Positions 58,345 to 61,052 of a DNA stretch of 64,000 bases are shown here, piece by piece. The number at the start of each line of letters is the position of its first letter. Within the stretch, counting starts at the first letter, position 1. The translations under genes and the position numbers were made by a program. The notes below the pieces were generated by a model that was given only the letters and a program-made list of their open reading frames with translations, searched no databases and was not told the DNA's origin. The stretch lies in assembly GCA_963826065.1 (NCBI GenBank), contig CAWGVP010000002.1, positions 173,055-237,054 on the forward strand, in the 5' to 3' direction. The DNA comes from an uncultured Gemmatimonadales bacterium. Lineage in GTDB: Bacteria > Gemmatimonadota > Gemmatimonadetes > Gemmatimonadales > GWC2-71-9.

Positions 58345-58440
58345 GGCCTGGCCGCCGAGTGGAGGAAGTCACAGGTTTGTTAAGGACCTTCGGCCATTCC
58401 TCTTCTCTCCGAAGCTTTCGGGTTGAGTCCCGCTCCATTC
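58345..58440 (+). pseudogene. Degenerate tRNA-Ser-like sequence (copy 1)
   Basis: 58345-58385 aligns ungapped with the tRNA-Ser(GCT) 5' half at 60392-60432 (about 30/41 identical by hand count, including GCCGAGTGG and GGTTTG.TAA). A T-arm-like CGGGTTGAGTCCCG lies at 58419-58432. Acceptor pairing is lost. Confidence 0.45.
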
Positions 58441-58667
58441 TGCACGCGCGACCGGAGCCGCTACCACTCTTTCCCGCAGCTCGCTTCAGTCCGTTCTACC
58501 CCTACCCACTCTGGACCCGCTTCTGGACCCACAGCAAAGGCTCCCCGAAGCGAGCGCCTGGTGATGGTCCCTTCACGCTCGGTTCAGACAACCTTCGGCC
58601 TTGGGCGCCAATCTTGTCGCGCGGGCCCAGCTACTGAGCAACCAAGCTGGATCACGAAGGAGGACGG

Positions 58668-60188
58668 ATGAGACCGCTCGCGTCCAGGGACCCACGGCCG
58701 TCCCTACTGCTTCGGTGCGGAGCCCTGGTGGCCGTCGCGTCGCTGGCGGCGTGCTCGACCGATTCGACGCCAACGGATCCATCCGGACCCGGAGCGAAGG
58801 ACGGCCTGACTTCGGGGCGGCCGCTCTCCGGCGCCGCCGCCCGCCCCAATGTCGTCGTGATCATGAGCGACGATCAGTCGGTCCGCGACATGCAAGTCAT
58901 GGCCCAGACCCGCAAGCTCGTCGGCGCGGCTGGGGTGACGTTCCGCAACAGCACGGTGACGTATTCGCTCTGCTGCCCCTCTCGCGCCACGCTGCTGACC
59001 GGGCAGTACCCGCACAACCATGGTGTCCGTAGTAACCAACCGCCGGACGGAGGGATCACCGCCCTCGACCAGACCAACACGCTGCCGCTCTGGCTTCAGG
59101 AGGCTGGCTACGTGACCGGTCACATCGGAAAGTACCTCAACGGCTATGGCGAAGTGGACTCGCTGGAGATACCGCCGGGATACACAGAGTGGTACGCATC
59201 GATCGGCGCGTCGGCGTACGAGTACTACGGCTATGTCTTGAACGAGAACGGGACCCTGGTGACGTACGGGAGCACTCCCGACCAGTATCAGGCAGATGTC
59301 TACACGGCCAAGGCCGTGGATTTCATCGGGCGACGCGGCCGTGCGGCGACAACGGGCGGGCAACCGTTCTTCCTGTTCGTGACCTATCTGGCGCCCCACA
59401 GACTCAATACCGGCGACCCAGCGTTCCGGAAAGCCGTTCCCGCCCCCCGCCACATGGGTCGCCTCGCTGGCGAGCTCCTGCCCGAGTCACCCGCCTTCAA
59501 CGAAGCGAACATGTCCGACAAGCCGACGAGCATGCGCCGACGACCGCTCCTGACGTTGGCGCAGGTGACCGAGCTCGGTGCGGTCAACCAGGCGCGGCTG
59601 GAGTCCCTGTTGGCGGTCGATGAAGGCGTTGCCGCCATCGTGAGCGCGCTCCAGGAGGCCGGAGTGCTCCAGAACACGCTCGTGGTATACACATCGGACA
59701 ACGGCTGGTTCCAGGGGGAGCACCGGATCGTGTCCGGCAAGGTTCTGCCATACGAGCCGGCGGTGAAGGTGCCGCTCCTGATCCGTGGCCCCGGCATACC
59801 CCCGCAACGCAACGTCGGGGCCCCCGTCGCCAATATCGACCTGGCGCCCACCATCGTCGCGACGGGAGGAGCGAGCGCCCGCCGCACCATGGATGGGCGC
59901 AGCCTCTGGCCGCTGCTCCAAGGGCAAACCGCCTGGGCGACTCCCCGTCATGTGCTGGTGGAAGACAGCCCACTCGGCGGGGAGGCAAGCATCTTCTGGT
60001 CCATCAGGAAAGCGAAGTACGTCTACACCGAATACGCCAACGGCGACCGGGAGTTCTACGACCTCGCCAAGGACTCGGCCCAGGTTGCGAGCCGGCATGC
60101 CGATCCGGCATATGCGACCGTCCGGCAGCGGTTGGCCAAGCGCCTGGCCGCGATGAAGACCTGTACCGGGCCCACAGCCTGCTGGTAG
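58668..60188 (+). CDS. Sulfatase (Cys-type, formylglycine-dependent) lipoprotein
   Basis: Lipobox SLAAC. NVVVIMSDDQ and CCPSRATLLTGQYPHNHG (C-x-P-x-R) motifs. GAAGGAGG RBS. Confidence 0.92.
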   Translation: MRPLASRDPRPSLLLRCGALVAVASLAACSTDSTPTDPSGPGAKDGLTSGRPLSGAAARPNVVVIMSDDQSVRDMQVMAQTRKLVGAAGVTFRNSTVTYSLCCPSRATLLTGQYPHNHGVRSNQPPDGGITALDQTNTLPLWLQEAGYVTGHIGKYLNGYGEVDSLEIPPGYTEWYASIGASAYEYYGYVLNENGTLVTYGSTPDQYQADVYTAKAVDFIGRRGRAATTGGQPFFLFVTYLAPHRLNTGDPAFRKAVPAPRHMGRLAGELLPESPAFNEANMSDKPTSMRRRPLLTLAQVTELGAVNQARLESLLAVDEGVAAIVSALQEAGVLQNTLVVYTSDNGWFQGEHRIVSGKVLPYEPAVKVPLLIRGPGIPPQRNVGAPVANIDLAPTIVATGGASARRTMDGRSLWPLLQGQTAWATPRHVLVEDSPLGGEASIFWSIRKAKYVYTEYANGDREFYDLAKDSAQVASRHADPAYATVRQRLAKRLAAMKTCTGPTACW

Positions 60189-60334
60189 CCCTACGGCCGT
60201 CCGGGTCGCCTACTGCTGTGGTCGGCATGCGGGCGGCCCGCTGGGGATGGCACCATCGTGAGACACCTATGCCGCTGCGGTTGCCGGCCCGGGGTTTGAG
60301 AATATGTCTTCAGGACCGGCTTGATCTACGTCAA

Positions 60335-60363
60335 TTGCGCCGTGTTAACCCTTGCCTAACAAT
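60335..60363 (+). promoter_or_regulatory. Sigma70-like promoter in front of the truncated tRNA-Ser
   Basis: TTGCGC, 16-17 nt spacer, TAACAAT, about 28 nt upstream of the tRNA 5' end. Confidence 0.4.
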
Positions 60364-60391
60364 GTTGGCATGGCCATTTTCCACCCTCGCT

Positions 60392-60432
60392 GGAGTGGTG
60401 GCCGAGTGGCTGAAGGCACCGGTTTGCTAAAC
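60392..60432 (+). pseudogene. Truncated tRNA-Ser (anticodon GCT): 5' half only, broken just after the anticodon loop (copy 2)
   Basis: GGAGTGGTGGCCGAGTGGCTGAAGGCACCGGTTTGCTAAAC is a perfect class II tRNA 5' half. The expected ACCGG anticodon-stem 3' strand, variable arm, T-arm and CCACTCC acceptor are absent downstream. Confidence 0.7.
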
Positions 60433-61052
60433 GCATCGCCCACTTTCCGGCTCGTTCCCTCCCTGTCCGTCTCCGTCTCGCGCTGCCCCTTGCCCTACCC
60501 CCTCGTGTCCGCCTGGATCCGGCCCTTACCCGCTCTGACTGTCTGAGAAAGTGACTGAGGTGGTCTCTCTCTCTTTCCCCTTTCTAGATTAACAGAAGCA
60601 GGTCACCGTCCGCACCGTCCGCATCGCCGGCAAAGTACGGCTACCAAGCACGCTAAGACCGCGGACGCACCGCATGTCTACCAGCGTCCGCGCGTCGTCC
60701 GCCCCGGCCGCACCGAAGGGCGGACGGGGAGCGGCAGATTCTTTCGGCTCAGTCTCGGAACTCCAGATGTGATGCCCATGCCCGGAGCGGCCGATCCTTC
60801 CGGACATCGAGCAGCGCGTACCCCGCTGGCAGCGGGTTAATCATGTCGGCTGGCATCACGTCGAGCACTCGGGTCCACTCGGTTGGCATCCCCGGGTGTT
60901 TCCAGGCGAGATCCGGGACGCTCGTGCCCAGCGTTGACGATCGGTTGAGGGCATGCCGCTTAGTCTAGCCGCATCGACCTATCGCGAGTCAAGGAGGTTG
61001 GAGGGCGTCAATTTCGGCTGGCTGATGAACGCGATGCCGGAGCCGTGGCCAG

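What the first reader, a model, noticed from the sequence alone, without database searches (positions are those of the whole stretch)
58345..60545. The sulfatase gene is bracketed by two decayed copies of a tRNA-Ser-like segment
Copy 2 (60392-60432) is a pristine tRNA-Ser(GCT) 5' half. Copy 1 (58345-58385) aligns to it without gaps at about 30/41 positions by hand count. The core runs are GCCGAGTGG, GAAG, CAC and GGTTTG.TAA. Copy 1 continues with an anticodon-stem 3' strand (ACCT), a hairpin in variable-arm position and a T-arm-like CGGGTTGAGTCCCG. Downstream of both copies lie colinear pyrimidine-rich stretches sharing blocks (CCACT, TTCC, CTCG, GTCCGT, CCCTACCC, TGGA.CC): 58463-58530 versus 60439-60525. 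Relative to copy 1, copy 2 looks as if about 80 nt (anticodon 3' stem to acceptor) were deleted. The 1.5-kb sulfatase gene thus sits between direct repeats derived from a tRNA locus. That suggests it arrived by, or was trapped between, successive integration events.
Basis: seen in the sequence. Interest (0 to 1): 0.6.

Follow-up and report, generated by a model that had tools for sequence, protein, structure and literature searches.

The report
Stacked genomic islands at tRNA-Ser(GCT)
Two mobile-DNA insertions landed one after the other in the same serine-tRNA gene of a Gemmatimonadales bacterium, each pushing aside the front half of the tRNA, and the sulfatase gene is the cargo of the older one; this is a real but ordinary example of a known, less common kind of genomic island.

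Summary
The two tRNA-Ser-like segments are real. Copy 2 (60392-60432) equals the first 41 nt of the Gemmatimonadales tRNA-Ser(GCT). Copy 1 (58345-58385) matches it at 30/41, against a background maximum of 23/41 in the window.

They are 5' tRNA fragments displaced by site-specific integration, not products of local duplication and deletion.
- A 99.1%-identical strain (L143) matches the window up to base 60432. It then continues as an intact tRNA-Ser(GCT) followed by gltX. Everything from 60433 onward is therefore a recent insertion.
- In 56 related genomes the same flanking genes sit next to an intact tRNA, and none has a sulfatase there.
- Each half is followed by a conserved pyrimidine-rich module of about 150-190 nt that holds a degenerate tRNA 3' half. 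The same modules follow tRNA-Ser 5' halves in about 20 other contigs. In three of these an intact tRNA lies 1.5-2 kb downstream.
- One relative (L009) has an excisionase-like gene and a tyrosine integrase directly upstream of the intact tRNA.

The sulfatase is the sole cargo of an old, integrase-less island of about 2 kb. A second island then integrated into the regenerated tRNA.

Islands marked by 5' tRNA fragments, and tandem island arrays, are already catalogued. This is a new member of a known kind.

The parts
55063..57094 (-). Native left flank: glycosyltransferase (55063-56358) and a stand-alone response-regulator receiver (56648-57094).
   Evidence: Pfam. Orthologues lie just upstream of tRNA-Ser(GCT) in 50-73 Gemmatimonadales loci.
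57128..58059 (-). Native flank: lipoprotein-like hypothetical gene. It is split into two frames in the window.
   Evidence: The gene is an intact 309 aa in L143 and 319 aa in L106. The window carries a TG insertion at 57501-57502 relative to L143. A homologue lies upstream of the tRNA in L028.
58345..58385 (+). Copy 1: old, decayed, displaced 5' fragment of tRNA-Ser(GCT). This is the bacterial side of the attL junction of island 1.
   Evidence: It matches copy 2 at 30/41 against a window background maximum of 23. It is 33/41 in strain L143. No tRNA is called here.
58386..58535 (+). Type-1 module: an element-borne degenerate tRNA 3' half plus a pyrimidine-rich arm. It ends in the repeated GACCC..GGACCCA motif (family consensus CACCCAAttTTGCACCCA).
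   Evidence: The nhmmer type-1 profile hits 58354-58535 (HMM positions 10-193 of 197, E=2e-15). The module-only profile gives E=7e-4. blastn to L118 and L123 gives 76% over 83-85 nt, E=3e-9 to 4e-8.
58668..60188 (+). Sulfatase gene (506 aa), the only cargo of island 1.
   Evidence: Pfam PF00884 at 2.9e-45 and PF16347. It is absent from 56 orthologous loci. The L143 protein is 99% identical (P0001) and lies at the same place. An 89%-identical protein lies next to the RR gene in L144. A copy 85% identical at the DNA level lies in an unrelated context in L145.
60294..60316 (+). Right-end motif of island 1 (GTTTGAGAATATGTCTTCAGG). It sits about 98 nt upstream of the tRNA start and may be an arm-type site.
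   Evidence: The pattern GTCTGAGAAANTGTCT (up to 3 mismatches) has only two matches in the window, at 60294 and 60541, both on the + strand and flanking copy 2. The same motif lies about 100 nt upstream of full or half tRNAs in L003, L033, L054, L063, L064, L074, L092, L118, L132, L053 and L139.
60337..60391 (+). tRNA upstream/promoter region carried at the right end of island 1 (CCCTTGCCTAAC..GGCCATTTTCCACCCTCGCT).
   Evidence: It is 84-89% identical to the regions upstream of tRNA-Ser(GCT) in L105, L024 and L023. No promoter was called by the sigma-70 scan, so promoter function is inferred.
60392..60432 (+). Copy 2: the pristine first 41 nt of tRNA-Ser(GCT), from the acceptor stem to two bases past the anticodon loop. 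It is the displaced 5' fragment at attL of island 2.
   Evidence: It is identical to 105 genome loci. L143 is 99.1% identical up to 60432 and then continues as an intact tRNA plus gltX.
60433..60592 (+). Type-2 module: a degenerate tRNA 3' half plus a pyrimidine-rich arm, ending in CTGTCTGAGAAAGTGACTGAGG. This is the left end of island 2.
   Evidence: The nhmmer type-2 profile gives E=1e-51 for 60392-60592. The module-only profile, built without the window, gives E=2e-23 for 60433-60575. blastn gives 82% over 193 nt to L131 and 80% to L111, and also hits L141, L110, L112 and L053. All of these homologies stop at about 60560.
60593..64000 (.). Interior of island 2, whose right end lies outside the window. 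It is a mosaic with gene remnants: a truncated OmpR-type regulator (61561-61944, +), a tyrosine-integrase C-terminal fragment (62003-62257, -), DUF5661 (62444-62719, +) and a frameshifted Kelch gene (62905-63976, -).
   Evidence: Pfam. Three-frame translation of the integrase fragment. Full-length Kelch homologues are 356 aa. GC is 0.60-0.66 here against about 0.69 elsewhere. There is no gltX and no further tRNA-Ser module in the window.

Best explanation
The locus is a tandem array of two genomic islands that integrated site-specifically into the chromosomal tRNA-Ser(GCT) gene of a Gemmatimonadales bacterium. They are in the less common '5'-fragment' configuration.

In this configuration the element lies upstream of the tRNA. 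Its attachment site carries a tRNA promoter region, an exact copy of the tRNA 5' part (through the anticodon loop) and, after it, a degenerate 3' half with a pyrimidine-rich arm. Recombination at or next to the anticodon loop joins the element's promoter and 5' part to the resident 3' part. This yields a functional tRNA next to gltX. The resident promoter and 5' part are left behind at the left junction, fused to the element's degenerate 3' half.

Step 1 (old): an island now reduced to about 2.05 kb (58386-60432) integrated. Its only cargo is the sulfatase. This left copy 1, which has since decayed.

Step 2 (recent): a second element integrated into the regenerated tRNA. This left copy 2, still pristine, followed by the type-2 module and at least 3.5 kb of foreign mosaic DNA.

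The working tRNA-Ser(GCT) and gltX should lie at the right end of island 2, beyond the window.

Shown: both insertions, the exact breakpoint of the second one, the module homologies, and the configuration. Inferred: catalysis by a tyrosine integrase, crossover in the anticodon loop, arm-site and promoter roles of the flanking motifs, and loss of the integrase from island 1.
For: 1. Empty site for island 2. L143 is 99.1% identical to window 57018-60432. Identity stops at 60432, and L143 continues as an intact tRNA-Ser(GCT) (ARAGORN) followed by gltX.
2. Synteny. In 56 species the RR gene lies 92-3010 bp from an intact tRNA-Ser(GCT), 95 loci have gltX beside the tRNA, and none has a sulfatase.
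3. Both junction modules recur. Type 1 occurs in 9 other contigs, including sister strain L106 at the orthologous position. Type 2 occurs in 8 others. All follow a tRNA-Ser 5' half broken at position 39-41, and what follows the module differs between contigs.
4. Three complete examples have the same layout of half + module ... promoter + intact tRNA + gltX: L053 (1576 bp), L139 (1967 bp) and L132 (about 1770 bp). In L053 the repeat also includes about 60 nt upstream of the tRNA.
5. L009 has an HTH_17 excisionase-like gene and a 406-aa tyrosine integrase (PF00589, 5.7e-26). The integrase ends 126 nt upstream of the intact tRNA. L093 and L064 hold integrase remnants at the same place.
6. Decayed left modules lie 0.7-5.3 kb upstream of intact tRNAs in L003, L101, L083, L079 and L082.
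7. The motif GTCTGAGAAANTGTCT occurs only twice in the window, at -98 and +150 relative to copy 2 and on the same strand.
8. GC content is lower from about 56 kb onward.
9. Islander lists 159 islands with 5' tDNA fragments and 125 tandem arrays (PMC4383910). The route of integration, decay to an integrase-less element, then accretion of a second element is described in PMC5704250.
Against: - Island 1 contains no integrase or excisionase.
- The only integrase sequence in the window is a fragment of about 45 homologous residues. It is on the opposite strand from the canonical layout seen in L009.
- The right end of island 2, its integrase and the intact tRNA are not in the window. They could not be retrieved.
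- The 195 nt upstream of copy 1 (58150-58344) shows no similarity to the tRNA upstream region of sister strain L106, although both should be native.
- Island 1 has a type-1 left module but a type-2-like right motif, so it may be a deletion hybrid of two elements.
- No excision product or circular form has been observed.
- The promoter and terminator scans gave nothing at the junctions.
Confidence: 0.85

Rival explanations
1. Local tandem duplication of the tRNA-Ser(GCT) gene, followed by pseudogenisation of the copies. The sulfatase and the downstream DNA then arrived by unrelated, non-site-specific events.
For: The two copies are direct repeats 2047 bp apart. Each is followed by tRNA 3'-half-like remnants. 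Island 1 has no integrase.
Against: The 5' part of copy 2 is 41/41 identical, whereas its '3' half' is highly diverged, and the switch is abrupt. The diverged parts are about 80% identical to modules in unrelated contigs with different cargo. The break falls at the same tRNA position in about 20 independent contigs. A 99.1%-identical strain has the intact gene.
Confidence: 0.05
2. Copy 2 is a tRNA gene truncated by an internal deletion, a transposon or IS insertion, or another rearrangement.
For: No 3' half is called by ARAGORN or Rfam. Pseudogene fragments lie downstream.
Against: No transposase, inverted repeats or target duplication were seen. What follows the break is a conserved 140-160 nt module shared with other tRNA-Ser junctions. 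Profile alignment shows no 80-nt gap. gltX is displaced by more than 3.5 kb.
Confidence: 0.04
3. The 5' half plus its module is a functional non-coding RNA gene (tRNA-like or tRNA-derived) transcribed from the tRNA promoter. It would not be merely a recombination scar.
For: The modules are conserved over about 150-190 nt and have a strong strand composition bias of 63-73% pyrimidine. In type 1, GGGCCTTCGGCC can pair with the D-arm/anticodon-stem region and is followed by a T run.
Against: There is no Rfam match at E<=10. Copy 1 is decaying: 30/41 in the window and 33/41 in L143. Left modules in other genomes are eroded. The distribution is sporadic: 1 of 105 species representatives carrying the 41-mer has a half. 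The simple terminator scan is negative.
Confidence: 0.04
4. An assembly or binning chimera joined a tRNA 5' half to unrelated DNA at 60432.
For: The source appears to be environmental, and all relatives are MAGs or metagenome contigs. tRNA repeats can mis-join assemblies.
Against: The same junction type (half plus type-2 module) is present in at least 8 independent contigs from different samples. L053 and L139 show half, island and intact tRNA on single contigs.
Confidence: 0.02

Closest known systems
tDNA-integrated genomic islands with a displaced 5' tDNA fragment (the minority class in the Islander database; tyrosine-integrase islands in tRNA/tmRNA genes)
   Same: An intact tRNA lies at one end and a cognate fragment in direct orientation at the other. 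The 5' fragment is upstream of the tDNA. The break is at the anticodon-loop sublocation. Tandem arrays occur. Islander counts 159 islands with 5' fragments against 3760 with 3' fragments, and 125 tandem arrays (PMC4383910).
   Different: Island 1 is 2.05 kb with one gene and no integrase, so Islander's integrase filter would reject it. The elements' attachment region retains a whole degenerate tRNA (a pseudo 3' half) and a pyrimidine-rich arm. The host phylum (Gemmatimonadota) and the target, tRNA-Ser(GCT) next to gltX, were not found described in the papers read.
CIMEs and site-specific accretion (ICESt1/ICESt3 of Streptococcus thermophilus; tandem IME/CIME arrays)
   Same: [quoted passage not shown]
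   Different: Those systems target the 3' end of protein-coding or tRNA genes in Firmicutes and are linked to conjugation. Here the target is the 5' part of a tRNA gene, and no transfer genes are seen. The left att of island 1 is decayed, so cis-mobilisation of the sulfatase is now unlikely.
Classical 3'-restoring tRNA islands and prophages (the majority class)
   Same: Site-specific integration into a tRNA gene with regeneration of the gene. The same window holds a likely example: a tRNA-Met 3' fragment at about 18806-18856 and an intact tRNA-Met at 22137-22212.
   Different: The geometry is mirrored. The element sits upstream of the tRNA, must supply a promoter, and leaves a 5' rather than a 3' fragment.
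Integron gene cassettes
   Same: Small units, often a single gene without its own recombinase, stacked at one site.
   Different: There is no attC/attI structure and no IntI. The repeats here are tRNA-derived, and each unit carries a tRNA promoter and 5' half. This is a resemblance only, and membership is not proposed.

Membership tests
tDNA-integrated genomic island, 5'-fragment configuration (Islander criteria) | An intact tRNA gene at one end and a cognate tRNA fragment at the other, in the same orientation | tested here: inconclusive
   Both fragments are present in the window, but the intact gene is not. In the 99.1%-identical strain L143, island 1 is bounded by copy 1 and an intact tRNA-Ser(GCT). 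L053, L139 and L132 show the full signature.
tDNA-integrated genomic island, 5'-fragment configuration (Islander criteria) | The fragment is an end fragment, and a 5' fragment lies upstream of the tDNA | tested here: met
   Both copies start at tRNA position 1 and end at position 39-41. Both lie upstream of where the intact gene is in L143.
tDNA-integrated genomic island, 5'-fragment configuration (Islander criteria) | A tyrosine integrase gene inside the island | tested here: not met
   Island 1 holds only the sulfatase. The visible part of island 2 has only an integrase fragment, PF00589 profile positions 119-162. A related locus, L009, has a full integrase plus an HTH_17 gene next to the tRNA.
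tDNA-integrated genomic island, 5'-fragment configuration (Islander criteria) | The island is absent from the same site in related genomes (empty site with a precise junction) | tested here: met
   Island 2 is absent in L143, with the junction at 60432. Island 1 is absent in 56 species with the same flanks.
tDNA-integrated genomic island, 5'-fragment configuration (Islander criteria) | Crossover at a canonical sublocation (anticodon loop, or T loop/T-acceptor junction) | tested here: met
   The identity block ends right after the anticodon loop: position 39 in type 1 and position 39 or 41 in type 2. The exact crossover within the block cannot be located.
tDNA-integrated genomic island, 5'-fragment configuration (Islander criteria) | Integrase-dependent excision and integration (attP circle, regenerated attB) | not testable with these tools
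   This needs reads or experiments. The only indirect evidence is polymorphism between L143 and the window.
CIME (cis-mobilizable element) in an accretion array | Integration and transfer genes lost, but functional attL and attR retained | tested here: inconclusive
   There are no recombination genes in island 1. The right att was usable, because island 2 integrated there. The left att is decayed: copy 1 is 30/41 and the module-only hit is E=7e-4.
CIME (cis-mobilizable element) in an accretion array | A second element integrated in the att site that contains the target-gene end | tested here: met
   Island 2 begins exactly inside the regenerated tRNA at the right end of island 1.
Functional tRNA gene (RF00005) | Cloverleaf detected by ARAGORN or the Rfam covariance model | tested here: not met
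   There is no call at 58345 or 60392, even at E<=10.
tRNA gene interrupted by a group I intron | An intron RNA fold, with the 3' exon downstream | tested here: not met
   There is no Rfam intron match at E<=10 in 57500-64000. No 3' half or further module is present in the window.

The most novel reading that the evidence does not exclude
The 1.5-2 kb integrase-less units seen in the window/L143, L053, L139 and L132 may not be deletion remnants. They could be a dedicated family of minimal, trans-mobilised gene cassettes of Gemmatimonadales. Each would consist of one or two cargo genes plus a self-contained attachment region: an arm motif, a tRNA promoter, the tRNA-Ser 5' half, and a deliberately non-folding, pyrimidine-rich pseudo 3' half that insulates or terminates transcription from the displaced promoter. 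This would amount to a tRNA-targeted, integron-like stacking system.
Probability: 0.12. Interest if true: 0.55.

Novelty: new member of a known kind. Interest (0 to 1): 0.3.

Why it matters
- It explains why a Gemmatimonadales chromosome carries two non-functional tRNA-Ser look-alikes. It also dates the sulfatase as horizontally acquired cargo that has since become fixed.
- It gives a clean natural example of island accretion, with occupied and unoccupied sites in strains 99% identical. It occurs in the mirror-image (5'-fragment) geometry, which makes up only about 4% of catalogued tRNA islands, and in a poorly studied soil phylum.
- On the practical side, the conserved junction modules are good markers for finding such islands. 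The associated integrases (L009-type) could be candidates for site-specific tools that target tRNA-Ser(GCT).
- It does not change any concept.

Tried and rejected
1. Split or intron-containing tRNA. Rfam at E<=10 found nothing in 57500-64000. Searches for the 3' acceptor strand and profile searches found no 3' half. Rejected.

2. Pairwise alignment of the two downstream stretches. It was not above chance. The homology became visible only through family profiles.

3. A terminator or insulator role for the sequence right after the break (GGGCCTTCGGCC-TTTT in type 1, CGGTGCC-TTTT in some type 2). ViennaRNA pairs it with the tRNA 5' part. The simple terminator scan is negative in the window, L120 and L139. 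Left as speculation.

4. Finding the source genome and the right end of island 2.
   - Exact look-ups of the sulfatase, DUF5661 and the truncated regulator found nothing.
   - The glycosyltransferase look-up lists a contig longer than 1 Mb, but no DNA was returned for it.
   - Kelch homologues sit on 2-kb contigs with different neighbours.
   - Not resolved.

5. The in-window integrase fragment as the enzyme responsible. It is about 45 homologous residues, on the wrong strand, and only 30% identical to the L009 integrase. Rejected as the active enzyme.

6. The putative integrase next to the 5' half in marine phage contigs. It has no Pfam hit. The L116 neighbour is only weakly integrase-like. 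Not used as evidence.

7. Homology between the 195 nt upstream of copy 1 and the tRNA upstream region of sister strain L106. None was found. Unexplained.
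Full report
**Observation**

The sequence at 60392-60432 reads GGAGTGGTGGCCGAGTGGCTGAAGGCACCGGTTTGCTAAAC. This covers the acceptor 5' strand, D arm, anticodon stem 5' strand, the anticodon loop with GCT, and two more bases. An exact search of one genome per species found this 41-mer in 105 loci. 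Nearly all are titled Gemmatimonadales or Gemmatimonadota; one is titled Bacillota. In 104 of them it continues as CGGCATAGGGGGTCAACCCCTATCGAGGGTTCGAATCCCTCCCGCTCCG, an intact tRNA-Ser(GCT).

In the window the 41-mer is followed instead by GCATCGCCCACTTTCC. ARAGORN and Rfam call only tRNA-Met (22137-22212, -) and tRNA-Ser(TGA) (49233-49319, +). Rfam at E<=10 on 57500-64000 finds nothing.

Sliding the 41-mer over both strands of the window gives 33 for the true tRNA-Ser(TGA), 30 for copy 1, and at most 23 anywhere else. The similarity is therefore real.

The two downstream pyrimidine-rich stretches are not significantly similar to each other when aligned pairwise. The local score is 20, and 128 of 1000 shuffles reach it.

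**Genomic context**

Around the finding lie the following genes:
- a glycosyltransferase (55063-56358, -)
- a receiver-domain protein, here called RR (56648-57094, -)
- a lipoprotein-like gene (57128-58059, -)
- the sulfatase (58668-60188, +)
- a truncated OmpR-type regulator (61561-61944, +)
- a C-terminal fragment of a tyrosine integrase (62003-62257, -; PF00589, 3.6e-8)
- DUF5661 (62444-62719, +)
- a Kelch protein (62905-63822, -)

GC content falls from about 0.69 to 0.60-0.66 over the last 8 kb.

In the related genomes the order is glycosyltransferase, RR, intact tRNA-Ser(GCT), gltX. In 56 species the RR start lies 92-3010 bp (median about 980) from the tRNA. gltX is found in 95 loci. No locus has a sulfatase. 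The window has no gltX. The space between RR and the tRNA is thus a variable region. In the window it holds 3.3 kb, and the 3' half of the tRNA and gltX are missing.

**Near-identical strains**

Two near-identical metagenome contigs settle the history.

L143 encodes a 99%-identical sulfatase (P0001). It is 99.1% identical to window 57018-60432. The alignment stops exactly at 60432. L143 then reads CGGCATAGGGGGTCAACCTCTATCGAGGGTTCGAATCCCTCCCGCTCCG, which ARAGORN calls as tRNA-Ser(GCT), followed by the start of gltX. So copy 2 is the 5' part of a gene that is intact in a sister strain. Everything from 60433 on is a recent insertion. In L143 the sulfatase segment is bounded by copy 1 on the left and the intact tRNA on the right.

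L106 is 93% identical to window 54522-58149. At the orthologous position it has a pristine 39-nt 5' half followed by GGGCCTTCGACCG. This is the same junction type as copy 1 (TAAGGACCTTCGGCC). No tRNA is called there.

**The sequences after the breaks are conserved modules**

A metagenome scan searched for the 5' half not followed by the normal next bases. It returned 33 contigs. The halves with the Gemmatimonadales 5' sequence fall into two colinear families.
- Type 1: GCTAA|GGGCCTTCGGCC TTTTCC .. TGTCC .. GTCCCGCTCCACCC .. GTCCGCCTGAGTCCG .. CTGTCTG CACCCAAttTTGCACCCA. Members are L106, L115, L118, L119, L120, L123, L127, L130 and L132.
- Type 2: GCTAAAC|GCATYGCC .. TTTCCG .. TGTCCG .. GAATCCG .. 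CTGTCTGAGRAAGTGTCTGAGG. Members are L053, L110, L111/L131, L112, L136/L139 and L141.

Both families contain recognisable remnants of the T loop and 3' acceptor strand, and both are 63-73% pyrimidine.

Profile searches place the window's two copies in these families:
- The type-1 profile hits 58354-58535 (E=2e-15).
- The type-2 profile hits 60392-60592 (E=1e-51).
- With the tRNA part removed and the window excluded from the profile, the type-1 module still finds 58387-58493 as its best hit in the window (E=7e-4). The type-2 module finds 60433-60575 (E=2e-23).

blastn homology between the window and the other type-2 contigs ends at about 60560 in every case, after which the contigs differ. Copy 2 therefore has not lost 80 nt. 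Like copy 1, it is followed by an element-borne degenerate 3' half.

**Complete examples and the recombinase**

Three contigs show both ends of an island:
- L053 has a half at 68, an intact tRNA at 1644, then gltX. The repeat includes about 60 nt upstream of the tRNA.
- L139 has its half and intact tRNA 1967 bp apart, then gltX.
- L132 has them about 1770 bp apart.

Their cargo is one or two unrelated genes, for example a creatininase-family gene. None has an integrase. The window's copy 1 to copy 2 distance (2047 bp) fits this size.

Eroded left modules lie 0.7-5.3 kb upstream of intact tRNAs in five further genomes.

L009 carries an HTH_17 (excisionase-like) gene and a 406-aa tyrosine integrase (PF00589, 5.7e-26). 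The integrase ends 126 nt upstream of the intact tRNA. The intervening DNA contains GTGCACCCAATTCTGCCCACA, the motif that ends type-1 left modules. L093 and L064 hold integrase remnants at the same place.

A second motif, GTCTGAGAAAnTGTCT, lies about 100 nt upstream of many full or half tRNAs, and also at the end of type-2 left modules. In the window it occurs exactly twice, at 60294 and 60541. Both copies are on the + strand, at -98 and +150 relative to copy 2. This layout is what arm-type sites around a core would look like, but that role is inferred.

**Mechanism**

Elements of this group sit upstream of the tRNA. Their attachment region carries a promoter region and an exact 5' part of tRNA-Ser(GCT), followed by a degenerate 3' half. 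Recombination within the shared block fuses the element's promoter and 5' part to the resident 3' part, giving a functional gene next to gltX. The resident promoter and 5' part are stranded at the left junction. The shared block ends right after the anticodon loop, so the loop is the probable crossover region.

A first integration brought the sulfatase, and its displaced half (copy 1) has decayed. It is 30/41 in the window and 33/41 in L143, with three clustered differences. The island is now integrase-less. A related MAG (L144) has a sulfatase 89% identical at the protein level next to the RR gene with no detectable left module, so the event is old. A copy about 85% identical at the DNA level sits in an unrelated context in L145.

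A second integration then used the regenerated tRNA. This happened after the split from L143. It stranded copy 2, which is still perfect.

The insertions, breakpoints and homologies are shown. The enzyme, the crossover position and the roles of the motifs are inferred.

**Comparison with what is known**

The Islander database paper describes this signature. It counts 3760 islands with 3' tDNA fragments and 159 with 5' fragments. It accepts a 5' fragment only when it lies upstream of the tDNA. It also reports 125 tandem arrays (PMC4383910).

The history inferred here has three steps: integration, decay to an element without recombination genes, then integration of a second element into the att site containing the target-gene end. 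This is the accretion route described for CIMEs and IMEs (PMC5704250).

The locus meets the configuration, end-fragment, sublocation and empty-site criteria. It fails the integrase-in-island criterion within the window, and the intact tRNA is outside the window. It works like, and is best filed as, a decayed tandem array of 5'-fragment tRNA islands. That makes it a new member of a known kind.

**Unresolved points**

- The right end of island 2 could not be reached.
- The 195 nt upstream of copy 1 has no similarity to L106's tRNA upstream region.
- Island 1 combines a type-1 left module with a type-2-like right motif, as does L132. It may therefore be a deletion hybrid.
- It is open whether the small integrase-less units are remnants or a dedicated cassette family.
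- It is also open whether the pyrimidine-rich pseudo 3' half has a function. A hairpin plus T run is predicted by folding but not by the terminator scan.

Noticed in passing
window 18806-18856 (-) and 22137-22212 (-): A 3' fragment of tRNA-Met(CAT), from the anticodon loop to the 3' end, matches the intact gene at about 47 of 50 positions with one indel. It lies 3.3 kb downstream of the intact tRNA-Met on the same strand. This looks like a classical 3'-fragment mini-island. Its main gene encodes a 787-aa Big_2/DUF3466 protein (19418-21781, -), and no integrase was seen.
   Followed up: partly
window 15000-20000: A low-GC stretch (0.595-0.64, against about 0.69). It holds an HTH_17 (excisionase-family) protein at 16753-17199 and a beta-lactamase-family protein at 17196-18596. 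It may be further island material adjoining the tRNA-Met fragment.
   Followed up: partly
window 19206-19297: A pyrimidine-rich run with repeated GTCCGTCTCCGTCC-like units. It gives weak, non-significant hits to the type-2 module profile (E=0.1-0.36). It lies inside the putative tRNA-Met island.
   Followed up: no
window 57501-57502: A TG insertion relative to the 99.1%-identical strain L143 splits the 309-aa lipoprotein-like gene into two overlapping frames (57128-57727 and 57346-58059). This is either a pseudogene or a sequencing error.
   Followed up: yes
window 62905-63976 (-): The Kelch gene appears frameshifted near 63822. A 92-aa ORF with a lipoprotein signal (63698-63976) lies in one frame and the 305-aa Kelch body in another. 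Close homologues (93-94% identity) are single 356-aa proteins.
   Followed up: partly
window 58363-58373 versus L143 1346-1356: Three of the 38 differences between the window and L143 cluster within 11 nt of copy 1. In L143 all three match the tRNA consensus (33/41 against 30/41). This suggests either fast neutral decay in the window lineage or a short gene-conversion patch in L143.
   Followed up: no
window 58150-58344: The 195 nt between the end of homology with sister strain L106 and copy 1 match nothing. They do not match L106's tRNA upstream region or any other locus fetched. Their origin is unexplained.
   Followed up: partly
L109, L133, L114, L125, L128 (IMGVR_UViG_3300025671_000008 and related contigs): These contigs, one of them a 54-kb IMG/VR viral contig, carry a different tRNA-Ser(GCT) 5' half (GGACAGGTGGCCGAGCGGCTGAAGG..AAAC|GCT). 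It is broken at the same position and sits about 20 nt from the start of a divergent 320-aa gene with no Pfam match. This may be an attP with a 5' half in another lineage.
   Followed up: partly
L116 1637-2955 and L117: A third lineage of tRNA-Ser(GCT) 5' half (GGAGCGATGGCCGAGAGG..). About 50 nt after it, the 3' end of a 409-aa gene on the opposite strand begins. That gene is only weakly integrase-like (SAM-like domain, E=0.005).
   Followed up: no
L001-L105, upstream of tRNA-Ser(GCT): Two distinct kinds of upstream region precede the same tRNA in different genomes. One is CTTGCCTAT..GGCGAATTTACC. The other is GTCTGAGAAA..GGGGTTTCGAG..GGTTAAGTT. The second kind, and a CTGCACCCAATTTTGCTCCCAA motif at about -100, probably mark genomes where an island has replaced the native 5' region.
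   Followed up: partly
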